From assembly GCF_016904885.1 (NCBI RefSeq), contig NZ_JADWYI010000001.1:7433224-7497223 (forward strand): a DNA stretch of 64,000 bases, written 5' to 3'. Positions 33,262-45,682 of this stretch are shown here, piece by piece. This stretch comes from [Archangium] primigenium (GTDB lineage: Bacteria; Myxococcota; Myxococcia; Myxococcales; Myxococcaceae). Position 1 is the stretch's first letter. Each line of letters opens with the position of its first letter. The translations under genes were made by a program, and so were the position numbers. A model generated the notes under the pieces. The model saw nothing but the letters and a program-made list of their open reading frames with translations, searched no databases and was not told the origin of the DNA.

Positions 33262-34343
33262 TCGCCTCCCCCGTTCTCCGCCAGCACGCCGAACACCAGT
33301 ACGCCGAGGAACTGGCCGCGCTCGCCCGGGTCGACGATCGGCCCCGGCCCCCGGGCTGGAAGCTGTCCCCGTGGGCCGTGCGCCTGTACCTGCTCGGAGG
33401 CACGCTCGCGGATGGCACCCCGGTGAGCGCCAAGTACATCGGCAACGCGCGGCTGGTGGAGATCGCCGTGGCCACGCTCGCCACCGACCGCGCCCTGCTG
33501 CTCTACGGCGTGCCGGGCACCGCCAAGTCCTGGCTGAGCGAGCACCTGGCGGCCGCCATCAGCGGGGACTCGACGCTGCTCGTGCAGGGGACGGCCGGCA
33601 CGGACGAGGCGGTGCTGCGCTATGGCTGGAACTACGCGCGGCTGCTCGCCGAGGGCCCCTCGGAGGGCGCCCTGGTGCCGAGCCCCGTGATGCGCGCCAT
33701 GCGCGAGGGCAAGCTCGCGCGCATCGAGGAGCTCACGCGCATGCCGAGCGAGGTGCAGGACGCGCTCATCACGCTCTTGAGCGAGAAGACGCTGCCCGTG
33801 CCGGAGCTGTCCAGCGAGGTGCAGGCCCGCGCGGGCTTCAACGTCATCGCCACGGCGAACAACCGGGACCGGGGCGTCAACGAGCTGTCGAGCGCGCTCT
33901 TGCGCCGCTTCAACACCGTGGTGCTGCCCACGCCCGACTCGCTGGAGCAGGAGGTGCGGATCGTCGAGAAGCGCGTGGCCGAGATGGGTCAGGCGCTCGC
34001 CCTGCCCGCGGAGAAGCCCGCCCTGGAGGAGATCCGCCGCGTGGTGACGCTGTTCCGCGAGCTGCGCGGGGGCGCCACGCTGGACGGGACGATGAAGCTC
34101 AAGACGCCCTCGGGCTCGCTGTCCACCGCCGAGGTCATCTCGGTGATGAACGGCGGGCTGGCCATGGCGGGCTACTACGGCGACGGCGTGCTGCGGGCGC
34201 CGGACCTGGCCGCGGGCCTCACCGGCGCCATCGTGAAGGATCCCGTGCAGGACCGGGTCGTGTGGCTCGAGTACCTCAAGACGGTGGTCAAGGAGCGCGA
34301 GGGGTGGAAGGACCTCTACCGCGCCTGCATGGAGGTGTTGTGA
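33258..34343 (+). CDS. MoxR-family AAA+ ATPase
   Basis: GTG start at 33258. Walker A GVPGTAKS, Walker B / sensor region KLARIEELTRMPSEVQDALITLLSEK. Typical MoxR length (~360 aa). Confidence 0.8.
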   Translation: MIASPVLRQHAEHQYAEELAALARVDDRPRPPGWKLSPWAVRLYLLGGTLADGTPVSAKYIGNARLVEIAVATLATDRALLLYGVPGTAKSWLSEHLAAAISGDSTLLVQGTAGTDEAVLRYGWNYARLLAEGPSEGALVPSPVMRAMREGKLARIEELTRMPSEVQDALITLLSEKTLPVPELSSEVQARAGFNVIATANNRDRGVNELSSALLRRFNTVVLPTPDSLEQEVRIVEKRVAEMGQALALPAEKPALEEIRRVVTLFRELRGGATLDGTMKLKTPSGSLSTAEVISVMNGGLAMAGYYGDGVLRAPDLAAGLTGAIVKDPVQDRVVWLEYLKTVVKEREGWKDLYRACMEVL

Positions 34344-36601
34344 GCGGTGGCGCGAGCACGGCGTCGGACGCCACGGTGCACGTGCTCGGGGTGCGGCACC
34401 ATGGCCCGGGCAGCGCGCGGGGCGTGCGGGCCGCGCTCGAGCAGCTCCAGCCGGACGTGGTGCTCATCGAGGGCCCCCCCGAGGCCGATGGCCTGCTCGC
34501 CCTCGCGGCCCACGCGGAGATGAAGCCGCCGGTGGCCCTGCTCGTCTACGCGGTGGAGGCGCCCGCGCGCGCCGTCTTCTACCCGTTCGCCGTCTTCTCG
34601 CCCGAGTGGCAGGCCCTCCAGTACGCGGTGGCGCGCGCCCTGCCCGTGCGCTTCATCGACCTGCCGCAGACGCACCAGCTCCTGCCCCCGGAGGAACTCG
34701 ACCCCGCGCCGGAGCCGACGGAGCCGGAGGACTCCCCTCGGAGGGATCCCCTCGGCGCGCTCGCGCGGGCGGCGGGGCACACGGACGGCGAGCGCTGGTG
34801 GGAGCACCTCATCGAGCAGCGCCAGGACGTGACGGGCGTCTTCGAGGCGGTGCTCGAGGCCATGAGCGCCCTGCGCGAGAACGAGTCGGCGCTGCCCGCC
34901 CGCGAGGCCCTGCGCGAGGCGTACATGCGCCGCTGCATCCGTCAGGCGAAGAAGGACGGCCACCAGCGGATCGCCGTCGTGTGTGGGGCCTGGCATGGAC
35001 CGGCGCTCGCCACGCCCCGGCCCGCGCGCGAGGACGATGCCCTGCTCAAGGGCCTGCCCAAGGCGAAGGTGGCCGCCACGTGGGTGCCCTGGACGTATGA
35101 CCGGCTGGGCTGGCGCAGCGGGTATGGCGCGGGCGTGGACTCTCCGGGCTGGTACGCGCACCTGTGGCTCACGCCCGAGCGGCCGGTGTCGACGTGGGCG
35201 GCGCGCATCGCCCACCTCCTGCGGGACGCGGGCATGGACGCCTCCTCCGCGAGTGTCATCGAGACGGTGCGACTTGCCGAGGCGCTGGCGGCGCTGCGCG
35301 AGCGCCACGTGGTGGGCCTGGACGAGCTGCGGGACGCGGCGCTCAGCGTGTTGTGCGAGGGAGACCCCACGCCGCTGCGGCTCATCCACGACAAGCTGGA
35401 GGTGGGCACGGGGCTGGGCGAGGTGCCCGCGGACGTGCCCTCCGTGCCGCTCGCGCGAGACCTCGCGGCCTGGCAGAAGACGCTGCGCCTGCCGCCCTCC
35501 GCGGAGAGCAAGCTCCTGGAGCTGGACCTGCGCAAGGCGCTGGACCGCGACCGCAGCCGGCTGCTCCACCGGCTGACCCTGCTCGACATCCCCTGGGGGG
35601 TGCTGGAGGAGAGCCAGAAGAAGACGACCGGCACGTTCCCCGAGACCTGGCGCATGCAATGGCAGCCCGTGCTGGCCGTGAACGTGGTCGAGGCCAGCCT
35701 GTTCGGCAACACGGTGGAGCTGGCGGCCGTGGGCCGGGTGGTGGCGCGCGCCGGCGAGGCCACGGAGCTCGGCACGCTCACCGACCTGCTCCTGGGCTCC
35801 CTGCCCGCGGAGCTGCCGCCCACGGCCATCGACACCGTGCTCCAGCACCTGCAAGCGCTCTCCAGTCGCTCGACGGACATCCTGGCGCTGATCGATGCCT
35901 ATCCCCAGCTCGCCAAGAGCCTCCGCCAGGGCACCGTCCGCGAGACGCCCACCGGGCCCATCCTCGCCATCGCCCATGGCCTCTTCGAGCGCATCATCAT
36001 CGGCCTGCCGGGCGCCTGTGTGTCGTTGGACGACGAGGCCGCGCTCCAGCGCCGCCAGCACCTGCGCACCATGCAGGAGGCCGTGAGACTGCTCGCGGAC
36101 AAGGAACGGGAGGCGGAATGGGCCCAGGCCCTGGAGGGGCTCGTGCATCGCGACGCCGTCCATGGGCTCGTGCGCGGCGCGGCGGTGCGACTGCGCCTGG
36201 AGCTGGGACGGGGACAGGACGCGGAGCTGGCCACCCTGGCCCAGCGCGCCCTCTCCCCGTCGGTCGCACCCAAGGACGCGGCGGCCTGGCTGGAGGGCCT
36301 CATCTCCGGCGATGCGCTGCTGCTGCTGCACCAGACCGGCCTGTGGGAGGCGCTCGACGGGTGGCTCCAGGGCCTGGCCCGGGAGTCCTTCGTCGAGCAG
36401 TTGCCGCTGATGCGGCGGGCCTTCTCCGGCTTCAAGGCGGCCGAGCGGCGCGACATGGCCGATCGGGTGCGGGACTTCTCGCCGTCCTCCACGGCCCGGC
36501 GGGAGGGCACCCCGCGGGAGACGCTGGATCCGAAGCGCGTGGCCCAGGTGTTGCCGGTGCTGTCCTCGTTGTTGGGAGTGAGGCTCGATGAAATCTCCTG
36601 A
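34340..36601 (+). CDS. Large (753 aa) protein of unknown function, DUF5682-like (name recalled not searched), conserved MoxR/vWA partner
   Basis: GTG 34340 overlaps the MoxR stop (GTGA). GC3-consistent frame. Mixed alpha/beta N-terminal half (HVLGVRHHGPGSARGVRAALE, VVCGAWHGPAL) and helical C-terminal half. The 1076-aa track ORF is an upstream frame extension. Confidence 0.55.
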   Translation: MSGGASTASDATVHVLGVRHHGPGSARGVRAALEQLQPDVVLIEGPPEADGLLALAAHAEMKPPVALLVYAVEAPARAVFYPFAVFSPEWQALQYAVARALPVRFIDLPQTHQLLPPEELDPAPEPTEPEDSPRRDPLGALARAAGHTDGERWWEHLIEQRQDVTGVFEAVLEAMSALRENESALPAREALREAYMRRCIRQAKKDGHQRIAVVCGAWHGPALATPRPAREDDALLKGLPKAKVAATWVPWTYDRLGWRSGYGAGVDSPGWYAHLWLTPERPVSTWAARIAHLLRDAGMDASSASVIETVRLAEALAALRERHVVGLDELRDAALSVLCEGDPTPLRLIHDKLEVGTGLGEVPADVPSVPLARDLAAWQKTLRLPPSAESKLLELDLRKALDRDRSRLLHRLTLLDIPWGVLEESQKKTTGTFPETWRMQWQPVLAVNVVEASLFGNTVELAAVGRVVARAGEATELGTLTDLLLGSLPAELPPTAIDTVLQHLQALSSRSTDILALIDAYPQLAKSLRQGTVRETPTGPILAIAHGLFERIIIGLPGACVSLDDEAALQRRQHLRTMQEAVRLLADKEREAEWAQALEGLVHRDAVHGLVRGAAVRLRLELGRGQDAELATLAQRALSPSVAPKDAAAWLEGLISGDALLLLHQTGLWEALDGWLQGLARESFVEQLPLMRRAFSGFKAAERRDMADRVRDFSPSSTARREGTPRETLDPKRVAQVLPVLSSLLGVRLDEIS

Positions 36602-37739
36602 AGAAGAGCGGCGGGAGCGCTGGCGGCTCGTGCTCGGAGAGCCCGCGCAGGAGCCCCTGGGCGTGCGGTTGGGAGACAACGAGCGGCGCATGGATCGCAC
36701 GCTCGAGGCGCTGTACGACGCCGAGCCCAAGGCGGGCCGCGAGGCCAGCATGCCCCACGTCTCGCGCTGGCTCGGGGACATCCGCGAGTACTTCCCCACA
36801 CCCGTCGTGCGCGTCATGCAGGGAGACGCGATCGCGCGGCTGGGGCTGCTCAAGATGCTGCAACAGCCGGAGGTCCTCGAGACCCTGGAGCCGGACGTGG
36901 AGCTGGTGGCCACGCTCTTGTCGTTCAGCCGGACCCTGCCCCAGAAGACGAAGGAGACGGCGCGTCGGGTGGTGCGCAAGGTGGTGGACGACCTGGAGCG
37001 GCGGCTGCGCGCGCCCACCGAGCGGGCCGTGCGGGGCGCCCTGTCCCGGGCCTCGCGCACGCGCCGTCCCCGCACGGCGGAGATCGACTGGGACCGGACG
37101 CTGCGCGCCAACCTGGGCAACTACCTGCCCGAGCGCAAATCCGTGGTGGTGGACACGCTCGTAGGCCATGGGCGCAAGCGCTCGAGCCTGCGCGACGTGG
37201 TGCTCTGCATCGACCAGAGTGGCTCCATGGCGACCTCGGTCGTCTACTCGAGCATCTTCGGCGCGGTGCTCGCCTCCCTGCGGGCGGTGACCACGCGCAT
37301 GGTCGTCTTCGACACGGCGGTGGCGGACCTGAGCGAGCACCTGTCGGATCCCGTGGAGCTGCTCTTCGGCACGCAGTTGGGCGGCGGCACGGACATCGCC
37401 AAGGCGCTCGCCTACTGTCAGCAAGTCATCACCCGACCGGCCCAGACCATCCTCGTGCTCATCACGGATCTCTTCGAGGGAGGCGACGCCCAGCGGATGC
37501 TCCAGCACGCCGCGTCGCTCGTGCACGGGGGCGTGACGGTCATCTGCCTCCTGGCGCTCAATGATCAAGGGACGCCCTCGCACGACCCCCAGCACGCCGC
37601 GCGGTTCGCGGCGCTCGGCATCCCCACCTTCGCCTGCACGCCGGACCTGTTCCCGGAGCTCATGGCGGCGGCGCTCCAGCGCCAGGATCTGACGGCCTGG
37701 GCCGCGCGGCGGGAGATTCAAGTGGCCCGCCCTGGATGA
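36588..37739 (+). CDS. von Willebrand factor A (vWA) domain protein with intact MIDAS
   Basis: ATG 36588 (GGGAGTGAGG ribosome-binding site) overlaps the previous gene by 14 nt. MIDAS DQSGSM...T(VVFDTAV)...D(ITDLFEGGD). CoxE-like vWA architecture. Confidence 0.8.
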
Positions 37740-37754
37740 GACAGGAGAGGGGGA

Positions 37755-37780
37755 GGCGGTTAGAGTCCGCCCGCTTTTCG
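37755..37780 (+). terminator. Candidate intrinsic terminator after the vWA gene
   Basis: GGCGG-ttagagt-CCGCC hairpin followed by the T-rich gcttttcgttcg. Confidence 0.35.
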
Positions 37781-37813
37781 TTCGTCCCCCTTTCATCCGA
37801 GGAAGACTCCCGC

Positions 37814-38314
37814 ATGAGCCAAGTGAAACTCTCGACGTCCAAGGGCGACATCGTCCTGGAGCTGGACTCCGCCAAGGCCCCGAAGACGGTCGCCAACTTC
37901 CTGGAGTACGTGAAGGCCGGTCACTACGACGGCACCATCTTCCACCGCGTCATCCCCCACTTCATGATCCAGGGCGGCGGCTTCGCGCCGGGCATGAAGC
38001 AGAAGCCCACCCGCGAGACCATCGAGAACGAGGCCGCCAACGGCCTGAAGAACGACACGTACACGGTGGCCATGGCGCGCACGTCCGCGCCCCACTCGGC
38101 CTCGGCGCAGTTCTTCATCAACGTGGCCGACAACGTCTTCCTCAACCACACCGCGCCCACGCAGCAAGGCTTCGGCTACGCCGTCTTCGGCAAGGTGGTG
38201 AAGGGCCAGGACGTCGTGGATCAGATCAAGGGCGTCCAGACGGGCAACAGCGGCATGCACCAGAACGTGCCGACCGAGGACGTGGTGATCACCAAGGCGG
38301 AAGTGATCGCCTAG
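37814..38314 (+). CDS. ppiB: Peptidyl-prolyl cis-trans isomerase, cyclophilin type
   Basis: 166 aa. Cyclophilin motifs [43 protein letters not shown]. Confidence 0.9.
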
Positions 38315-38396: not shown

Positions 38397-38669
38397 TTAC
38401 TGCTTGGCGGCCTTCTCGGCCTCGGCCTTCTCGGCCTCGCCCGCCGCGGCGGCCAGACCGCCGATGGCGGCCTTGGCGCCGTACTTCTTGCGGAACTTGT
38501 CCACGCGGCCCGCGGTGTCGAGCAGCTTGTACTTGCCCGTGAAGAAGGGGTGGCAGTTCGAGCAGACTTCCACGGCGAACGAGCCGCGCGTGGACTTGGT
38601 CTCGACGACGCTCCCACACGCACAGGTGATGCGGGAGGGCGGGTACATCGGGTGCAGATCGGCCTTCAT
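38397..38669 (-). CDS. rpmE: 50S ribosomal protein L31
   Basis: [26 protein letters not shown]... with the zinc-ribbon CxC / CxxC...C arrangement. AGGAG ribosome-binding site 6 nt upstream. Confidence 0.9.
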
Positions 38670-38790: not shown

Positions 38791-39909
38791 CTAATGAGAT
38801 GCGGACCCCGGCGGTTCGATTCGCTCCACCCGTGCTTTGATATCCGGATCGTCGGGAATGTCACTCCCCAGGGGGACATACGAGAAGCGGATCGCCCGCT
38901 CGCCTGCCTTGGCGCCCCCTGGCACGGACATGGGGCCGAGCTCCTTCTTGCGCTGCTCCAGACCGGCGATGGTCTCCCTCCAGGTGGCCTGGACCGACGC
39001 ATCGCGGGCGGCGGCGAGGCTCTTGCGGGCCTGCGCGAGGTTGTCCTCGACAATCTTCAGGCTCTGTTGGGCGCGATCCTGCTGGGACAGGTCCACGAAG
39101 GGCCCGCGGGGGCCTTGCACGGTGAGCTGCGCCCGGGCGAGCTGCCGCCCCCGATCCCCCGCCGTCATGAACAGGGCGTAGTCGTCCCGCTGGGCGAGCG
39201 TGGACACGCGCCCGTCATGGGATTGCAGGATGAGGTCCAGCGCCTTGCCGGACTGGAGCGACAGCGTGGAGGCCTCCAGGGACGGCAGGGCCGCGAGCAC
39301 CACCACCACGTCCACCTTGTCCTTCTCGCGCAGGCGGCGGGCCTCGGCGAGCACCGCGGGCAGCGCGGGCTGGCCCGTCAGCCCGTCCTGGCGCGGCACG
39401 GGCCCCGAGGGCGACACGCCCACGATGCCGAACTTCACCCCGCCCACGCTCACCACCGTGGACGCGTCGAAGAGCCGCTTGCCCGCGCCATCCACGAGGT
39501 TGGCGGACAGGAGCTTCATCTTCCCCTTCTTCTGGAAGGCGCGCAGGAAGTCCGCGCCCAGGATCAGATCCCGGGCGCCCACGGCCATGGCCGTGGTCCC
39601 CAAGGCGTCCATCTCCTCGAGCAACAGCTGCGCCCGCGCCTTCTCCTGGGGGTCTCCCCCCGCGAAGGTCGTCTTGAACAGAGCGTTTCCGGCATCCAGC
39701 ACCAGCACCGGCCCCTTCGCGCGCTCCCGCGAGAAGACCGTCTTTCGTCTGGCCAGACCGCCAGACGGGTTGTGGCGTCAACCACAGGGGGCGATTTCGC
39801 CCCCGTTGTCTCCGGAGAAGAGCAGCACCACGGACTTGGGCGCCGCGCTCGCCGCCCGGGGCAGGAGCATCAGCGTCATCGACGCGAGCAGCAATGAACG
39901 GCGGTTCAT
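38791..39909 (-). CDS. 5'-nucleotidase/metallophosphatase-like lipoprotein with an in-frame TGA (codon 44), a candidate selenoprotein; alternatively a pseudogene
   Basis: ATG 39909 overlaps the cpoB-like stop (ATGA). Signal peptide [22 protein letters not shown]. The reading frame continues unchanged through TGA at 39778-39780 (…[25 protein letters not shown]…[12 protein letters not shown]…). The downstream body resembles the 5'-NT N-terminal domain (LLDAGN..F / [17 protein letters not shown] versus LLDAGDQFQG / AMNALGYDAMALGNHEFD) but the GNHE catalytic motif is degenerate. Confidence 0.5.
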
Positions 39910-40760
39910 TTCCGACCCTTCTTCGCCTTGTCCAGCTCCGCGAGCCGGCTCTTGGCCGTCTTGGCCGCGTCGGACTTGGGGTAGCCCTTGACGAGCTCCT
40001 CGAGCGCCAGCCGCGACTCCTCCTGCATCTTGAGTTTCTTGAAACACTCCGAGGAGCGCAAGTAGGCGTTCGGCGTGGACTCCGACTTGGGGTACTCCTG
40101 CAGGAGCTTGCCGTACTCGAACAGGGCCTCGCGGCACTTGTCCTCGGCGAAGTAGCTCTCGCCCAGCCCGAAGTGGGCGTCCGCCGTGAGGGCGTCCTTG
40201 GGCCACTTCTTGATGAACTCGTTGTAGAGCTGGCGGGCCACGGGCACCTCGCCCCCCTTGGCCTTGGACTGGGCCAGGGCGAGGAACTCCTTCTTGTCCG
40301 TGGGGCGCTTGAGCTCCTCGGCCTTCTTGCGGGCCTCGGCTTCCTTCTGGGCCTCCTCACCCTTGAGCGCCAGGAAGCGCTGATTGGTGTCATCGCTGGT
40401 GCGGCTGAGCGCCGACTCCAGCTCGCCAATCTTGTAGACGTACGTCTCCACCTGGCCGCGCAGCTGGGCCAGGTCCTCCACCGTCTTCTGCAGCTGGATG
40501 CCGATGTCCGCGCCCGAGCGGCGCGACGCCGTGTCCAGGCCCTGCAGGGCCTTGGAGACCTCGGCGATCTTCTCGTCGATGCGCGGCAGCGTGGCGTCGA
40601 GCTCCGCGCGCGTGCGCTTGAGCTCCTCCTGGACCTGGGCCTGGGCGGTGTCGAGCCGGTCGAGCCGGGACTCCAGGGCCTTGCCCCGATTGGCGGGATA
40701 GAAGCACCCGGAGAGGGCGAGCGGCAGGACGAGGAGGGCGAGCCTTCGCATAGGGGGCAC
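39906..40760 (-). CDS. cpoB: Tol-Pal system protein CpoB/YbgF-like lipoprotein (coiled-coil + TPR)
   Basis: Lipobox LALSGC. Long coiled coil, then YbgF-type TPR (ARQLYNEFIKKWPKDALTADAHFGLGESYF, ALFEYGKLLQEYPKS). Confidence 0.7.
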   Translation of the reverse strand: MPPMRRLALLVLPLALSGCFYPANRGKALESRLDRLDTAQAQVQEELKRTRAELDATLPRIDEKIAEVSKALQGLDTASRRSGADIGIQLQKTVEDLAQLRGQVETYVYKIGELESALSRTSDDTNQRFLALKGEEAQKEAEARKKAEELKRPTDKKEFLALAQSKAKGGEVPVARQLYNEFIKKWPKDALTADAHFGLGESYFAEDKCREALFEYGKLLQEYPKSESTPNAYLRSSECFKKLKMQEESRLALEELVKGYPKSDAAKTAKSRLAELDKAKKGRK

Positions 40761-40795: not shown

Positions 40796-42040
40796 TCACC
40801 CCGGCCGAGGGCCGCCCGCTCGCTCCAGGCGCTCGATGGCCCGGGCACACGCCACCTGGAGCCGGGCGTTGTTGAGGAAGAAGGGCGTGGAGCGGGCCCT
40901 TCCCTCCTCCAGCGAGCGCAGCGCGCGGCGGTATTCACTCAGCGCATCACCCGGAGCGTTGCGCTGCTCGCACACCATGGCGAGCAGGTAGCGGGCCGCG
41001 GCGAGATCCGGATCCAACCGCAGGCAGCGCCGCAGCGTCTCCTCGGTCTGGGGGCCCGGCTGGGTGTGCGAGGTGGCCCAGCCGAGCACCTGGCTGAAGA
41101 GCGAGTCCGCCTCCTCGTAGGCCAGGGTGGTGGGCGGAGGAGGCGGCGGCGGAGGCGCCACGTCCAGCGGAGCCCCGGGCGTGCCCACCGCCGCGAACCG
41201 GCCCGAGCCCACCGTCGCGAACCGGCCCGAGCCCGAACCCACCGTCGCGAACCGGCCCGAGCCCGAGGACGGAGGCACGGGGGGCGCGGGGGGCTCCGGC
41301 GGCGCGCGGCCGTAGAAGAAGGCCTCGTCGAAGCGCAGGGTGCGCAGGCCGGGCGGCGTGTTCAGCAGGGGCTCGGTGGAGGAGAGCACCAGGAGCCCCT
41401 CGGGCGCGAGCCGCTCGCCGAAGGAGGACACCACGCGGGTGAAGGACTCGGGGCTGAAGTAGATGAGGACGTTGCGGCAGACGATGATGTCGAAGCCCCG
41501 GCGCTCCACGGGCGAGGGGTACACCGAGTCCATCAGGTTGTGGCACAGGAAGCTGCCGCGCTCCTTGAGCGCGGGCACCAGGCCGTGACGGCCCGGCCCC
41601 ACGGACACGAACCAGCGCTCGCGCAGCGCGGGGGGCACCCGCTGCAGTTGCTCGGCGCTGAACCACCCCTCGCGGGCGCGCTGGATGGCCGTCTCGGAGA
41701 TGTCCGTGCCCAGCACCGTGCTGGCGGGATCCGCGCCCACCTCGGCCAGCAGCACGAGCAGCGTGGCCACCTCCTCGCCCGTGGCGCAGCCCGCGCTCCA
41801 CACCCGCAGGGGCCGCCGCTCGCGCGCCACCAGGGGCGCCAGCACGTGCGCGCGCAGCGCCTCCAGTTGGGCCTCGTCCCGGAACAGCTCCGTCTTCTGC
41901 ACGGTGATGGCGTCGATGAGCTCGGCCAGCTCCGCGGAGCCCTCTGGGGACTGCAGGTGCAGCAGCCGCTGGACGCTCGAGCCCCCCCACCCCGCGAGCT
42001 TCTCGTCCAGCCGGCGGCACTGCAGGTCGCTCAAGGCCAT
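40796..42040 (-). CDS. cheR: Chemotaxis protein methyltransferase CheR with C-terminal TPR domain
   Basis: Start MALSDLQCRRLDEKL (CheR N-terminal helical domain). SAM-binding VWSAGCATGEE and VCRNVLIYF. Pro-rich linker, TPR tail. Confidence 0.8.
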   Translation of the reverse strand: MALSDLQCRRLDEKLAGWGGSSVQRLLHLQSPEGSAELAELIDAITVQKTELFRDEAQLEALRAHVLAPLVARERRPLRVWSAGCATGEEVATLLVLLAEVGADPASTVLGTDISETAIQRAREGWFSAEQLQRVPPALRERWFVSVGPGRHGLVPALKERGSFLCHNLMDSVYPSPVERRGFDIIVCRNVLIYFSPESFTRVVSSFGERLAPEGLLVLSSTEPLLNTPPGLRTLRFDEAFFYGRAPPEPPAPPVPPSSGSGRFATVGSGSGRFATVGSGRFAAVGTPGAPLDVAPPPPPPPPTTLAYEEADSLFSQVLGWATSHTQPGPQTEETLRRCLRLDPDLAAARYLLAMVCEQRNAPGDALSEYRRALRSLEEGRARSTPFFLNNARLQVACARAIERLERAGGPRPG

Positions 42041-42109
42041 GCCCGTGCGACGCGCCACGAGCGCGTGGACGGGGTGGAAGCGGGCCGGATAGGAGGGCGG
42101 CACCGCGGT

Positions 42110-43165
42110 TCAGCGCCCCACGGCCAGGGATTCGCCGCGCACCAGGCGCATCAGCGTGCCCGCCACGTCGTCGCCATGGACGAGGTGGTCCACCGCCTTG
42201 CGCCCCACCGCGGCGCCCGGCATGCCGAACACCACGCACGACTCCTCGTTCTGCGCGAGCGTCAGGCCCCCGCCCTGCTTGATGGCGAGCAGGCCCTCCG
42301 CGCCATCCTCGCCCATGCCGGTGAGGATGAGCCCGAGGGCGCGCCGCCCGTAGGCCTTGGCCGCGCTCTCCAGCAGCACCGTGCCCGAGGGCATGTGCCC
42401 GTCGCGCTCCACGCCCGGCTTGAGCGCCACGCGGCCCCGGAACGGAATGGCCATGTGCTGGCCGGGCGGCGCGATGAGCACGTTGCCGGGCAGGAGCTGC
42501 TCGCCATCCTGCGCCAGCCGCACCTTGAGCTTCGAGGAGTTGGCGAGCCAGCCCGCGAGCGACTCGGCGAAGGCGGCGTTGATGTGCTGCACGATGACGA
42601 TGGGCGTGGGGAAGTCCGCGGGCAGCTCGGACAACATCCGGAAGAGCACCTGCGGGCCGCCCGTGGAGCTGGCCACCGCCAGCACGCCATAGGGCATGCC
42701 CACGGGCGCGGGCGTGGTGCCCCCACCGGGCAGGGGCGGCCGACGCTTGCTGTGGATGTGGCGGATGACGCGCACCGAGGACAAGAGCTTCACCTCGCGC
42801 GACAGGTTCCACGCCTCCAGCCCCGCGTCGATGGACGGCTTGATCTGCAGCGCCAGGGCGCCGATCTCCAGCGCCCGGCACGTGAGCTCTGGCGCCTGCT
42901 GCCGCGGGTCCGCCGTGAGCATCAGGATGGGCGTGGGGACCTCGGCCATGATGTGCTCGACGGCCGTCAGCCCGTCCATCACGGGCATCTCCACGTCCAT
43001 GGTGATGACCTGGGGCCGGAGCTCTCGCGCCGCGTCGAGGGCTTCCTTGCCGTTGGTGCAAGTGCCGACCACTTCCAGATCCGGATCCCGGCTCAGTGCT
43101 TCACAGATCAGCTGTCGGCAGATGTGCGAGTCGTCGACGACCAGCACCGACACTTTCTTGCCCAT
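42110..43165 (-). CDS. cheB: Chemotaxis response regulator protein-glutamate methylesterase
   Basis: Receiver VLVVDDS...[12 protein letters not shown]. Methylesterase catalytic region VASSTGGPQ / HINA / FGMPGAAV. Confidence 0.9.
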
Positions 43166-43234
43166 GTGGCTTCCATACTCCGTGCGCGCCCCCTGGAATA
43201 TACCGAATGTGACCGGTCTTGACTCGCCGGTTCA

Positions 43235-45682
43235 TCAACCCAGGAGCCGCCGCACCACGTCGACCAGGTCTTGACGCACCAGGTCACCCTTGGTGATGTA
43301 GCCATCCGCCCCGGCGGCCAGCCCTCGCCGCCGGTCATCCTCCCCGCCCCGGGTGGTGAGGATGACGACGGGGAGGACCTTGTGGGTGGGGTGCGCCTTG
43401 AGCCGGCGCGTCAGCTCCAGGCCGTCCGCCCGGGGCATCTCCAGGTCGGTGCACACCAGGTCCACCTGCGTATTGACGAGCAGATCCAGGGCCTCCAGGC
43501 CGTCGGTGGCCATGACGACGTCGTAGCCCACCGCCTCCAGCAGCGCGCCGATGAGCTCGCGCGTGAGGGGGGAGTCGTCCACCACGAGGATGCGGCGGCG
43601 GGGGGGCGGCGCGGGACGGGGCGTGACGGCCGAGGCCCGGCTGCCCCGGAAGCCCGACAGGCCCCGGGCGTTCGCGATGAGGTGCGCGGCGGACAGCACC
43701 ATGGACAGCCGGCCATCCGCGAGCGTGGTGGCCCCCGTGAGGTGGGGGAAGTGCCCGAGCAGGCCCTTGAGGGGGAGGATGGCCTGGACGCTCTCCTCCA
43801 GCACCCGGTCCACCGCCAGGGCGGCCATGGAGCCCTGGCTGCGCACGACGAGCACGAGCGCCCCCTCCCCGGCCTCCTGCTCCGGGCTCAGGCCCAGGAG
43901 GGCGCCCAGCGAGGCGAAGGGCATGGGCTGCTCGTCCACCTCCAGCACCCCGCGCCCGGCCACCTCCTTGATCTGCGAGGACTCCACCCGGAGCGCGCGC
44001 GACACATGGGCCGCGCTCAGGCACAGGGTCTCCTCGGCCACCTTCACGAAGAGCAGCGGGGCCACGGTGAGCGACACCGGAACCCGCAGCTCGAAGCGCG
44101 TGCCCTGGTTGCCATGGGACGCCACCACCACGTCGCCGCCCAGCGCCCGGAGCGAGCTGCGCACGGCGTCCAGGCCCACGCCCCGGCCGGAGATGTCCGT
44201 GGCCACCTCGCGCGAGGTGAAGCCGGACAGGAAGATGAGCTCGCGCGCCGCTTGATCCGTCAGGCCCGAGGCGGCGGCCTCATCCAGGAAGCCCTTGCGC
44301 ACCGCGGCGCGGCGCAGCACCGAGGGCTCCAGGCCCACGCCGTCGTCCTCCACCCGCAGGACCAGCCGGTTGCCATCCCGCGCGGCGCTCAAGGTCAGCC
44401 GGCCCCGCGGGTGCTTGCCCGCGGCCACCCGGTCCACGCGCGACTCCAGCCCGTGATCGAGCGCGTTGCGCACCAGGTGCAGCAGCGAGTCGCGCAGCGC
44501 CTCCACCACCGCCCGGTCCGCGCGGGTGTCCTCGCCGTCCACCACCAGCTCCACTTCCTTGCCCAGCTCGCGCGCCAGGTCCCGCACCATGCGCGGGTAG
44601 GGCTCGAAGAGCACGGACAGCGGCAACATGCGCAGGCGCTGCACCTCGTCGGCCACGTAGCCCAGGTCGCGCAGCTCCTCGTTGGCCAGCAGCTTCTCCT
44701 CGCGGTGCAGGCCGGCCGCCAGCTCCTTGGCGCGCCCCAGCCGCTCGGCCAGCAGCATCGCCGCCGGGCCCAGGTCCTCCGCGGCGCGCGCGAGCAGGCT
44801 CAGCTCCCGCGCCAGGTCCAGACGCCGGGTGGTGGCCAGCTCCCGGCGACGCGACACCTGGGTGAGGTTGGTCACCGCGCTGGTGAGCCGGTCCAGACTC
44901 GCCACGCCGATGCGCACCGAGCCATCCGCGCGATCCGCCGTGCGGACCGCGGCCGTCACGGGCGAGGGCCGGGGCGGCTCGGGCACCGCGGGCGGCATGC
45001 GGGCGATGGAGGTGGCGACCGTGACGGAGGCCGGAGGCGCCGCGCGCGGCGGCTCCAGGCTCGAGGCCCGTCCCGGCGGCGGGGGGCGCGTCGAGGACGA
45101 GGCCGGGGCGATGGCGGGAGGCACCGGCGGCGCCGAGCGGGACACGAGCGAGGGCGACGCCGCGCTCAGGGACACCGAGCCCCAGGCGGGGGTGGTCTCC
45201 TCGGCCGAATCCTCCACGGACTCGCGGCGCGCGATGGGCGGACCCGCGCGCGGGGTCGCCACGGGCGGCGGCGGCGCGGCGGCGCCCAGGCCGGTGATCT
45301 CCGCCCGGGTGCACTCCTGGAGTCCGCGCACCAGCTTGCCCACCTCGGGGGGAGACTGGACGGGCTCCTGCCCCGCGGCGCCGGACAACACCAGCACGGC
45401 GTCCGCCGCCCGGAGCAGCGCGTCGATGGAGTCCGCGGACAGCGCATGCTCGGCGCGCTCGGTGGAGCGCACCAGTTCCTCCATCTCGTGGACGACGGTG
45501 TTGATGGTGTCGAACCCCATCATCCGCGCCTCGCCCTTGAGGCCGTGCAGCTCGCGCAGCACCGTGCGGCCCGCGTCGGGACTGGCGCCCGCCTCCAGCT
45601 CCACGATGCGACGGTTGATGCGCTCCAGGCGCACCCCCACCAGTTCCCGGAACTGCTTGAGCAGCTTCTCCCGCCCGCTCAC
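43235..45682 (-). CDS. cheA: Chemotaxis histidine kinase CheA with fused C-terminal receiver (CheA-REC hybrid)
   Basis: GTG start overlapping the MCP stop (GTGA). Hpt LRELHGLKGEARMMGF. HATPase LLHLVRNALDHG / GRGVGLD. CheW-like domain. Receiver ILVVDDSPLTREL...VCTDLEMPRADG. Confidence 0.9.
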   Translation of the reverse strand: MSGREKLLKQFRELVGVRLERINRRIVELEAGASPDAGRTVLRELHGLKGEARMMGFDTINTVVHEMEELVRSTERAEHALSADSIDALLRAADAVLVLSGAAGQEPVQSPPEVGKLVRGLQECTRAEITGLGAAAPPPPVATPRAGPPIARRESVEDSAEETTPAWGSVSLSAASPSLVSRSAPPVPPAIAPASSSTRPPPPGRASSLEPPRAAPPASVTVATSIARMPPAVPEPPRPSPVTAAVRTADRADGSVRIGVASLDRLTSAVTNLTQVSRRRELATTRRLDLARELSLLARAAEDLGPAAMLLAERLGRAKELAAGLHREEKLLANEELRDLGYVADEVQRLRMLPLSVLFEPYPRMVRDLARELGKEVELVVDGEDTRADRAVVEALRDSLLHLVRNALDHGLESRVDRVAAGKHPRGRLTLSAARDGNRLVLRVEDDGVGLEPSVLRRAAVRKGFLDEAAASGLTDQAARELIFLSGFTSREVATDISGRGVGLDAVRSSLRALGGDVVVASHGNQGTRFELRVPVSLTVAPLLFVKVAEETLCLSAAHVSRALRVESSQIKEVAGRGVLEVDEQPMPFASLGALLGLSPEQEAGEGALVLVVRSQGSMAALAVDRVLEESVQAILPLKGLLGHFPHLTGATTLADGRLSMVLSAAHLIANARGLSGFRGSRASAVTPRPAPPPRRRILVVDDSPLTRELIGALLEAVGYDVVMATDGLEALDLLVNTQVDLVCTDLEMPRADGLELTRRLKAHPTHKVLPVVILTTRGGEDDRRRGLAAGADGYITKGDLVRQDLVDVVRRLLG

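What the first reader, a model, noticed from the sequence alone, without database searches (positions are those of the whole stretch)
38791..39909. In-frame TGA followed by a SECIS-like hairpin: candidate selenocysteine codon in a 5'-nucleotidase-like lipoprotein (motif PCG-U)
Seen in sequence: the reading frame that starts at ATG 39909 (signal peptide, then [12 protein letters not shown]) meets TGA at 39778-39780. It continues in the same frame with GC3 bias intact: [23 protein letters not shown], then [12 protein letters not shown], to the stop at 38791. Ten nucleotides after the TGA, an 8-bp perfect stem CGUCUGGC / GCCAGACG (39760-39767 and 39746-39753 on the + strand) closes a 6-nt loop GGUCUG at +19..+24 from the UGA. 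The E. coli fdhF SECIS also has GGUCUG at exactly +19..+24.
Established knowledge: bacterial Sec insertion needs a hairpin about 11 nt downstream of the UGA, with G and U exposed in the apical loop. Sec usually pairs with a nearby Cys (here C-G-U).
Inference: this is a selenoprotein rather than a pseudogene, and the canonical 5'-NT metal/catalytic motifs (DxH, GNHE) are degenerate (GARDL). That suggests a redox rather than phosphatase function. The alternative is a true nonsense mutation, or a gene that starts at GTG 39708 with a separate upstream 43-aa ORF.
Basis: partly seen in the sequence, partly recalled or inferred. Interest (0 to 1): 0.7.

Follow-up and report, generated by a model that had tools for sequence, protein, structure and literature searches.

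The report
Real selenocysteine codon, known protein family
The in-frame TGA is a genuine selenocysteine codon in an exported enzyme-like protein of a selenoprotein family described in 2008, so public annotation that starts the gene after the TGA is wrong, here and in about 50 related myxobacterial species.

Summary
On the minus strand, ATG 39909 reads in frame through TGA 39780-39778 to TAG 38791. An 8-bp hairpin with loop GGUCUG sits at the same distance from the UGA as in E. coli fdhF.

Comparative evidence shows it is functional. In 49 other Myxococcaceae genomes the syntenic orthologue has TGA at the same codon, with a nearly invariant hairpin. 27 homologous loci (26 paralogues elsewhere, one syntenic orthologue) have TGC (Cys) there, encode the same peptide with other codons, and lack the conserved hairpin.

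The protein (372 aa, Archangium primigenium) belongs to the published 'UshA-like, CxU/PCGU' selenoprotein family (Zhang & Gladyshev 2008; NCBIfam NF041198). It is a short form: it scores 172.8 bits against a cutoff of 275 and lacks the C-terminal tetraheme cytochrome c domain of canonical members. That probably explains the truncated 305-aa GenBank call.

Most metal ligands of 5'-nucleotidases are lost. Cys42 and Sec44 are the only Cys/Sec residues. Together with the heme-fused relatives, this favours a redox role.

It has a plain signal peptide and is not a lipoprotein. The sel genes of this genome could not be checked.

The parts
38791..39909 (-). Complete selenoprotein gene: 372 codons including Sec44, plus the TAG stop. 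It is a short-form UshA-like PCGU protein.
   Evidence: Translation. Colinear with 369-376-aa Cys homologues. NF041198 hit, E 1e-50.
39844..39909 (-). Signal peptide, residues 1-22, predicted cleavage ASA|AP. There is no lipobox Cys.
   Evidence: Read directly from the sequence. N-termini of the same type in the orthologues.
39796..39813 (-). Remnant of phosphoesterase motif I, GDNGGE (residues 33-38). It lies upstream of the TGA.
   Evidence: The profile alignment places it on UshA TNDHHG: the Asp is kept and His43 is lost. G33, D34, G37 and E38 are invariant.
39778..39789 (-). P-C-G-U motif (residues 41-44). C42 and U44 are the only Cys/Sec residues in the protein.
   Evidence: The GOS family reads show DPCGU.
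39778..39780 (-). UGA selenocysteine codon (codon 44).
   Evidence: TGA in 50 of 77 homologous loci (window included) and TGC in the other 27.
39746..39767 (-). SECIS hairpin: 8-bp stem with apical loop GGUCUG. It lies on the codons for P-S-G-G-L-A-R-R.
   Evidence: Fold. 92.7% of cells paired over 29 distinct sequences, with 2 compensated pairs. Third-position conservation 0.93 against 0.71 in the Cys homologues. Same spacing as fdhF.
39706..39708 (-). GTG (Val68), used as the start codon in the truncated 305-aa GenBank annotation. It is not the real start.
   Evidence: P0001 is 100% identical and covers 82% of the protein, starting [11 protein letters not shown].
39100..39837 (-). Calcineurin-like (5'-nucleotidase N-terminal) fold with degenerate metal ligands, residues about 25-270.
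   Evidence: AF2 model, pLDDT 87.4. Foldseek to E. coli UshA, E 4.5e-18. Ligand alignment.
38794..39087 (-). C-terminal region, residues 275-372: long helical hairpin, a strand, a helix and the conserved tail [10 protein letters not shown]. It stands where canonical members carry the cytochrome domain.
   Evidence: Secondary structure. NF041198 profile matched only at positions 7-374 of 519. Tail conservation.
39906..40760 (-). Upstream partner gene: a CpoB/YbgF-like coiled-coil plus TPR protein. Its stop overlaps the selenoprotein start (ATGA).
   Evidence: TIGR02795, 83.4 bits against a cutoff of 90.1. Pfam TPR_6. Found immediately upstream in all 49 Sec loci. ATGA or GTGA overlap in at least 32 of the 50 Sec genes, window included.

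Best explanation
The gene at 38791-39909 (minus strand) encodes one 372-residue exported selenoprotein.

Decoding (inferred from the established bacterial mechanism): when the ribosome reaches UGA 39780-39778, SelB carrying Sec-tRNA(Sec) binds the hairpin at 39767-39746. Its apical loop GGUCUG presents G23/U24 at the same distance as in E. coli fdhF. Selenocysteine is inserted as residue 44.

Export (inferred from sequence): the product goes through the Sec pathway and its signal peptide is cut after Ala22.

Family (shown): the protein is a short form of the published UshA-like 'PCGU' selenoprotein family.

Chemistry (inferred): the domain has the 5'-nucleotidase fold but has lost most dimetal ligands and the catalytic His-Asp pair. 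In their place, a loop inserted just after motif I carries Cys42-Gly-Sec44. This pair most likely works as a selenenylsulfide or selenol redox or chalcogen-transfer centre in the periplasm, probably together with the translationally coupled CpoB-like TPR protein.
For: 1. Homologues of 369-376 aa align end to end across the TGA and have an invariant Cys there, in GDNxGEIxxCGC.
2. Of 77 homologous loci, window included, 50 have TGA and 27 TGC at that codon. They span Archangium, Cystobacter, Vitiosangium, Hyalangium, Myxococcus (M. xanthus included), Corallococcus, Pyxidicoccus and MAGs.
3. All 49 other TGA loci share the CpoB-like TPR gene immediately upstream. 40 of them also carry CheB and CheR-TPR upstream, and 39 have rpmE downstream. 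So they are orthologues and not independent accidents.
4. Across the TGA genes the 22-nt hairpin is nearly invariant. Third-codon-position conservation is 0.93 there against 0.71 in the Cys homologues, which encode the same P-x-G-G-L-A-R-R with other codons. The Sec genes use AGA and CGA for Arg where the Cys homologues use CGG, CGC or AGG.
5. Divergent lineages keep a hairpin by other solutions. L067 has ACGGGC/GCCCGU (two compensated pairs). L073 has a shifted 7-bp stem that even changes Ala to Pro. GGUCU is always in the loop.
6. The spacing equals that of E. coli fdhF.
7. The best family hit is NF041198 'UshA_like_PCGU' at E 1e-50. Published GOS reads of the family read ...DPCGUKKNPLGGLSRK...ILDAGDLLF. 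The family is listed with motif CxU.
8. Strand beta1 and motif I lie upstream of the TGA, so the annotated 305-aa product would lack its signal peptide and part of the fold.
9. For a redox role: of the UshA ligands D41, H43, D84, N116, H217, H252 and Q254, only D41 and H252 have counterparts, and the catalytic H117/D120 pair is gone. C42 and U44 are the only Cys/Sec residues, and Cys homologues have exactly two Cys. Canonical NF041198 members carry four CxxCH heme motifs at the C-terminus.
10. Relatives are published Sec users.
Against: - selA, selB, selC and selD of A. primigenium itself were not seen. None lies in the window or in the 77 loci, and the rest of the genome could not be searched.
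- There is no experimental evidence of selenium in any member of this family.
- Covariation in the hairpin is thin. Only 3 cells in 2 pairs carry compensatory changes, and sliding the partners by +2 gives a similar covariation score. The RNA argument therefore rests mainly on conservation measured against the Cys homologues.
- The E. coli SECIS has a bulged U17, which this hairpin lacks.
- The protein scores below the NF041198 curated cutoff, 172.8 against 275.
- The redox function is an inference. The AF2 loop around residues 43-46 has low confidence, and I could not measure distances in the model.
Confidence: 0.9

Rival explanations
1. The GenBank model is right. TGA terminates a 43-codon upstream ORF, and the real gene starts at GTG 39708, giving a 305-aa '5'-nucleotidase'.
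For: This is how the gene is annotated in A. primigenium (P0001) and in dozens of relatives with 303-313-aa calls. A GAAGGGG stretch lies a few bases upstream of the GTG.
Against: - The 'upstream ORF' carries the signal peptide, strand beta1 and motif I of the same fold, and is colinear with full-length Cys homologues.
- GC3 continues across the TGA.
- The GTG is simply the conserved Val of PVLVLDAG.
- A 305-aa product would be cytoplasmic and would lack part of the domain.
- The truncated calls are what gene finders produce at any Sec codon.
Confidence: 0.04
2. The TGA is decoded, but not as Sec in this particular genome. This could be near-cognate read-through, for example as Cys or Trp, if A. 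primigenium has lost the Sec machinery.
For: The sel genes of this genome were not verified.
Against: - The first 42 nt from the TGA, hairpin included, are identical to those of 12 other species.
- The one syntenic orthologue that uses Cys carries TGC at this codon and has lost the conserved hairpin sequence (L068).
- Close relatives are listed as Sec users.
Confidence: 0.05
3. The TGA is a nonsense mutation (pseudogene) or a sequencing error.
For: None beyond the stop codon itself.
Against: - The same TGA occurs in 49 independently sequenced genomes of at least 7 genera.
- Amino-acid conservation is intact on both sides.
- GC3 is high on both sides.
Confidence: 0.01

Closest known systems
UshA-like (seleno)protein, motif CxU / 'PCGU' (COG0737 UshA-like selenoprotein of Zhang & Gladyshev 2008, PMC2398784; NCBIfam NF041198)
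   Same: - Sec sits at the same position in the same motif, P-C-G-U, and is followed by xxNPxGGL(A/S)R(R/K) and (L/I)LDAG(N/D)xLF. Compare the GOS reads.
- Same degenerate 5'-nucleotidase N-domain.
- Sec/Cys homologue pairs exist.
- It is the best NCBIfam hit, E 1e-50.
   Different: - It scores 172.8 bits, below the curated cutoff of 275, and matches only profile positions 7-374 of 519.
- Canonical members (P0235, P0215, P0247; 298-568 bits) are 519-534 aa long and end in a tetraheme cytochrome c domain with four CxxCH motifs. The window protein has no heme motif; it ends in a helical hairpin and the tail [10 protein letters not shown].
- It is always paired with a CpoB-like TPR gene.
[quoted passage not shown]
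   Same: Distantly related degenerate UshA-like domain, with a weak hit at E 5e-13.
   Different: 49 bits against a cutoff of 140, and the motif there is CxxU, not CxU.
E. coli UshA / CD73 5'-nucleotidases (PDB 1ush, 1oie, 4h2i)
   Same: The fold of the N-terminal metallophosphoesterase domain is shared: Foldseek E 4.5e-18, about 276 aligned columns, 17-18% identity. Both are periplasmic.
   Different: - There is no C-terminal nucleotide-binding domain.
- Metal ligands H43, N116 and H217 are replaced by non-ligand residues, D84 aligns with Asn75, Q254 has no evident counterpart, and the catalytic H117/D120 pair is lost.
- The CGU loop is an insertion that UshA lacks.
SoxB thiosulfohydrolase (PDB 2wdc, 4uwq; TIGR04486)
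   Same: Same superfamily fold, TM about 0.63, and a weak HMM hit. SoxB is a periplasmic enzyme acting on sulfur bound to a carrier-protein cysteine, which makes it a precedent for sulfur chemistry on this fold.
   Different: From established knowledge, SoxB uses a dimanganese centre, and those ligands are absent here. The score is 31.6 bits against a cutoff of 550. SoxB has no Cys-x-Sec motif.
E. coli fdhF SECIS element
   Same: A hairpin directly downstream of the UGA, with GGUCUG at +19..+24, so G23/U24 lie in the apical loop at the same distance.
   Different: Here the stem is a perfect 8 bp with a 6-nt loop and no bulged U17. Otherwise the sequences are unrelated. No Rfam family matched.

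Membership tests
Bacterial selenoprotein gene (generic) | In-frame UGA aligned with Cys in homologues | tested here: met
   Cys in all 62 full-length homologues aligned. TGC in 27 loci and TGA in 50.
Bacterial selenoprotein gene (generic) | SECIS hairpin just downstream of the UGA with G/U in the apical loop, conserved in orthologues | tested here: met
   Spacing identical to fdhF.
Bacterial selenoprotein gene (generic) | selA, selB, selC and selD present in the same genome | not testable with these tools
   Only the 64-kb window is held, and no sel gene or tRNA lies in it or in the 77 loci. Relatives are listed as Sec-utilizing by Peng et al. 2016, Table S2.
Bacterial selenoprotein gene (generic) | Selenium shown in the protein | not testable with these tools
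   Needs 75Se labelling or mass spectrometry.
UshA-like PCGU (seleno)protein, literature family (COG0737, CxU) | C-x-U motif in a COG0737/UshA-like N-terminal domain | tested here: met
   P-C-G-U at residues 41-44. The GOS family reads carry the same DPCGU...GGLSRK...LDAGD context. UshA fold.
NCBIfam NF041198 UshA_like_PCGU (equivalog) | HMM score at or above the curated cutoff of 275 bits | tested here: not met
   172.8 bits. Control members P0235, P0215 and P0247 score 298-568 bits.
NCBIfam NF041198 UshA_like_PCGU (equivalog) | Full-length architecture of about 519 aa with a C-terminal tetraheme cytochrome c domain | tested here: not met
   The profile is matched only at positions 7-374 of 519. 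The window protein has no CxxCH motif; canonical members have four.
5'-nucleotidase / UshA family (active enzymes) | Dimetal ligands (DxH, GD, GNH[ED], H, GH) and the catalytic His-Asp pair | tested here: not met
   GDNGGE, DAGN, GARD and LAA replace them. Only D34 and H231 are kept.
5'-nucleotidase / UshA family (active enzymes) | C-terminal nucleotide-binding domain | tested here: not met
   No Pfam hit. The Foldseek alignment to UshA covers only about 276 columns of the N-domain.
Bacterial lipoprotein | Lipobox with an invariant Cys at the signal-peptide cleavage site | tested here: not met
   There is no Cys before residue 42, and the signal peptide ends ASA|AP.

The most novel reading that the evidence does not exclude
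The heme-less short form and its translationally coupled CpoB/YbgF-like TPR partner would form a distinct two-gene periplasmic selenoprotein module specific to Myxococcaceae. Its Cys-Gly-Sec centre would act on a cell-envelope substrate or on a partner protein. Its fixed position directly after the Frz-like chemosensory genes would reflect a functional tie to envelope or motility physiology, not mere synteny.
Probability: 0.12. Interest if true: 0.5.

Novelty: new member of a known kind. Interest (0 to 1): 0.3.

Why it matters
1. Annotation. The gene is truncated to 305 aa in GenBank for A. primigenium. Among the best 120 database hits, every orthologue is likewise truncated to 276-313 aa. About half of the closest metagenomic cluster representatives look like calls restarted after the TGA. 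The likely cause is that the myxobacterial short form scores below the NF041198 cutoff. A subfamily model or a lower cutoff could restore the full selenoprotein in at least 50 species, including the model organism M. xanthus.

2. Biology. The function of the UshA-like PCGU family is unknown. The myxobacterial form has one domain, exactly one Cys and one Sec, natural Cys paralogues in the same genomes, and occurs in a genetically tractable aerobe. That makes it a convenient system for finding out what the family does.

None of this would surprise a selenoprotein specialist.

Tried and rejected
- Pfam gives no hit for the read-through protein.
- Rfam at gathering thresholds finds nothing in the window, and ARAGORN finds no tRNA.
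- tblastn with E. coli SelA, SelB and SelD against the window plus 77 loci (0.99 Mb) finds nothing.
- Literature searches for myxobacterial Sec machinery gave nothing direct. Only Table S2 of Peng et al. 2016 helped.
- My first guess was that the upstream TPR gene marks a tol-pal cluster. I rejected it: the genes further upstream are CheR-TPR, CheB and CheA-CheY.
- The look-up of encoding contigs found no record for the A. primigenium Cys paralogue P0074. The neighbourhood of the Cys homologue P0005 (an SH3_3 protein upstream, an unknown 374-aa gene downstream) gave no functional clue.
- The mini-hairpin that places the UGA in its own loop is not conserved, so I dropped it.
The model was built with X at residue 44, so the key loop has low confidence.

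Full report
**Observation.** On the minus strand the frame opened by ATG 39909 meets TGA at 39780-39778 and continues without a further stop to TAG 38793-38791, 372 codons in all. Ten nucleotides after the TGA, CGUCUGGC (39767-39760) pairs perfectly with GCCAGACG (39753-39746) around the loop GGUCUG (39759-39754). RNAfold places this hairpin in the minimum-energy structure. GC3 is 0.86 before the TGA, 0.83 between the TGA and GTG 39708, and 0.90 after, against 0.47-0.73 in the other frames. Taken alone the feature is weak: the folding z-score is -2.2, and TGA-N18-GGTCTG occurs once against 0.56 expected. Its significance comes from comparison with other genomes.

**Source and current annotation.** The downstream part is 100% identical to a 305-aa '5'-nucleotidase' of Archangium primigenium, annotated from GTG 39708, which is Val68 of the full frame. 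Among the best 120 database hits, every orthologue (58-73% identity) is truncated in the same way to 276-313 aa. All full-length proteins of 367-378 aa are less similar homologues, at 59% identity or below.

**The TGA aligns with an invariant Cys.** Full-length homologues align from signal peptide to C-terminus. They read GDNxGEIxxCGC where the window reads [14 protein letters not shown] (A1; 62 homologues in A3/A4). So the region upstream of the TGA belongs to the same protein, and the stop sits on a conserved Cys of a C-G-C motif.

**Orthologues keep the TGA and the hairpin.**
- A scan of one genome per GTDB species returned 77 loci, all from Myxococcaceae-like organisms.
- Counting the window, 50 loci have TGA at this codon and 27 have TGC.
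- All 49 other TGA loci have the CpoB-like TPR gene immediately upstream. 40 of them also show CheB and CheR-TPR upstream, and 39 have ribosomal protein L31 downstream.
- 26 TGC loci lie elsewhere in the genome, so they are paralogues. L068 is syntenic but carries TGC.
- In the TGA genes the sequence CCGUCUGGC-GGUCUG-GCCAGACG is almost invariant. Third-codon-position conservation in the hairpin is 0.93, against 0.71 in the Cys homologues, which encode the same P-x-G-G-L-A-R-R with other codons (CGG, CGC or AGG in place of AGA and CGA). The mean MFE of the segment is -14.6 against -10.2 kcal/mol.
- Over 29 distinct sequences, 92.7% of cells are paired. Two pairs carry compensatory changes.
- L067 changed UCU/AGA to ACG/CGU. 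L073 has a shifted 7-bp stem that costs an Ala-to-Pro change. GGUCU stays in the loop in both.
- Covariation is thin because the element is so conserved, and one slid control reaches a similar covariation score. The contrast with the Cys homologues is therefore the stronger argument.

**It is a known family.**
- Zhang & Gladyshev (2008, PMC2398784) list 'COG0737, UshA-like' as a selenoprotein family with motif CxU: 76 selenoprotein sequences in the GOS data and 92 Cys homologues.
- Their supplementary reads show ...GQLDPCGUKKNPLGGLSRK...ILDAGDLLF, the same motif context as here.
- Reviews from 2022 and 2026 list the family under COG0737 and NF041198. Peng et al. 2016 count it in 12 organisms.
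- With U replaced by C, the window protein hits NF041198 'UshA_like_PCGU' at E 1e-50. The score is only 172.8 bits against a curated cutoff of 275, and only profile positions 7-374 of 519 are matched.
- Control proteins of 519-534 aa pass the cutoff at 298-568 bits. Their extra C-terminal part matches cytochrome c554-like models and contains four CxxCH motifs.
- The myxobacterial protein is therefore a short, heme-less branch of the family. Because it falls below the equivalog cutoff, annotation pipelines probably do not rescue the Sec codon. That link is my inference.

**What the protein is.**
- AlphaFold2 with 63 sequences gives pLDDT 87.4. The loop at residues 43-46 has low confidence, because residue 44 had to be entered as X.
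- Foldseek matches residues up to about 275 to the N-terminal metallophosphoesterase domain of E. coli UshA (E 4.5e-18), CD73 and SoxB.
- After that come a long helical hairpin (275-328), a strand and a helix. There is no nucleotide-binding C-domain.
- The profile alignment to UshA gives these correspondences: TNDHHG aligns with GDNGGE (Asp kept, His43 lost). The bridging Asp84 aligns with Asn75. GNHEFD aligns with GARDLI (Asn116, His117 and Asp120 lost). His217 aligns with Ala. Only His252 has a counterpart, His231.
- The CGU sits in a 3-residue insertion directly after motif I, which in real 5'-nucleotidases lies at the metal site. That placement rests on established knowledge; I could not measure it in the model.
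- The protein has exactly one Cys (C42) and one Sec (U44). Short-form Cys homologues have exactly two Cys.
- The signal peptide ends ASA|AP with no lipobox Cys, so the protein is exported but is not a lipoprotein.

**Most likely mechanism.**
- Shown: one reading frame, a Cys/Sec homologue pair, a conserved hairpin, family membership in the broad sense, and loss of the phosphoesterase ligands.
- Inferred: SelB-dependent insertion of Sec44, export, and a Cys42-Sec44 selenenylsulfide or selenol centre doing redox or chalcogen-transfer chemistry in the periplasm.
- Support for the redox reading: the long-form relatives carry a fused tetraheme cytochrome. The short form would need a separate electron partner.
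- The CpoB/YbgF-like TPR gene (TIGR02795, 83.4 bits against a cutoff of 90.1) is immediately upstream in every Sec locus, including distant MAGs that lack the che genes. It overlaps the start codon by ATGA or GTGA in at least 32 of the 50 Sec genes. This suggests translational coupling and a physical partnership.

**Evolution.** In a midpoint-rooted NJ tree without bootstrap, the Archangium 'HCGCGQ' Cys paralogues nest inside the Sec clade, and the syntenic TGC locus L068 nests among distant Sec forms. This suggests repeated Sec-to-Cys replacement with loss of the hairpin.

**Sec machinery.** No tRNA, selA, selB or selD lies in the window or in the 77 loci. This says nothing about the other 9.4 Mb. 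Peng et al. 2016 define Sec users by SelD, SelA and SelB. [quoted passage not shown] Conservation of TGA plus hairpin across these genera is indirect evidence that the machinery works in this lineage.

**Rivals.**
- The annotated two-ORF model fails because the upstream part carries the signal peptide, strand beta1 and motif I of the same domain.
- A pseudogene or sequencing error is excluded by 49 independent genomes.
- Strain-specific loss of Sec decoding remains formally open, but it is unlikely given the intact hairpin.

**Verdict.** The element is a genuine Sec codon with its SECIS. However, it belongs to a selenoprotein family known since 2008, and the literature surveys searched M. xanthus and C. 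fuscus, so they may already have counted this branch. What is new is modest: a mis-annotated gene, a short heme-less subfamily below the NCBIfam cutoff, and its fixed pairing with a CpoB-like gene. Interest 0.3; novelty: new member of a known kind.

Noticed in passing
window 40796-45682 (-): Frz-like chemosensory genes lie directly upstream of the TPR/selenoprotein pair: a CheA-CheY hybrid (43235-45682), CheB (42110-43165) and CheR with a TPR tail (40796-42103). CheB and CheR-TPR are both detected upstream, in the same order, in 40 of the 49 other Sec loci. They are not detected in the distant MAG loci L065-L076.
   Followed up: partly
window 39906-40760 (-): A CpoB/YbgF-like coiled-coil plus TPR gene scores just under the TIGR02795 cutoff (83.4 against 90.1 bits). 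It is outside a tol-pal cluster, and its stop overlaps the selenoprotein start as ATGA. It is conserved upstream of every Sec orthologue.
   Followed up: partly
window 38794-38823 (-); C-termini in L001-L076: The extreme C-terminus R[IV]EPPGSA[SAG]H-COOH, ending in His, is conserved in most Sec orthologues and in weaker form in the Cys paralogues. Its function is unknown; it could be a metal-binding or recognition tail.
   Followed up: no
L014, L016, L017, L019-L021, L024, L026 (Cys paralogues); L068: In an NJ tree the Archangium 'HCGCGQ' Cys paralogues nest within the Sec clade. L068 is a syntenic orthologue with TGC. This suggests repeated Sec-to-Cys switches accompanied by loss of the hairpin.
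   Followed up: partly
proteins P0121-P0270: About half of the 150 closest 50%-identity cluster representatives are 290-320 aa long and begin at MNPxGGLxRR or xLDAGNALF. These look like gene calls restarted after a TGA, so Sec forms of this short subfamily appear common in metagenomes and are routinely truncated.
   Followed up: partly
proteins P0235, P0215, P0247, P0212, P0223, P0246; P0178, P0192, P0198: Canonical NF041198 proteins carry four CxxCH heme motifs in their last 130 residues or so. Some relatives of about 1200 aa also end in four CxxCH motifs and match the family profile in two stretches.
   Followed up: partly
window 39771-39785 (-): A 5-bp mini-hairpin, GUGGU/UGAC/GCCAC, presents the UGA in its loop. 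It is not conserved in the Myxococcus and Pyxidicoccus orthologues, so it is probably incidental.
   Followed up: yes
window 38397-38669 (-), 37736-38314 (+), 33371-37739 (+): Downstream neighbours are ribosomal protein L31 (rpmE), then on the other strand a cyclophilin-type PPIase, a VWA CoxE-like protein and a 1076-aa DUF5682 protein.
   Followed up: no
L048 and L075: The reading frames of these two homologues end early, at 302 and 275 aa with unrelated C-termini. This may reflect frameshifts or assembly errors in those genomes.
   Followed up: no
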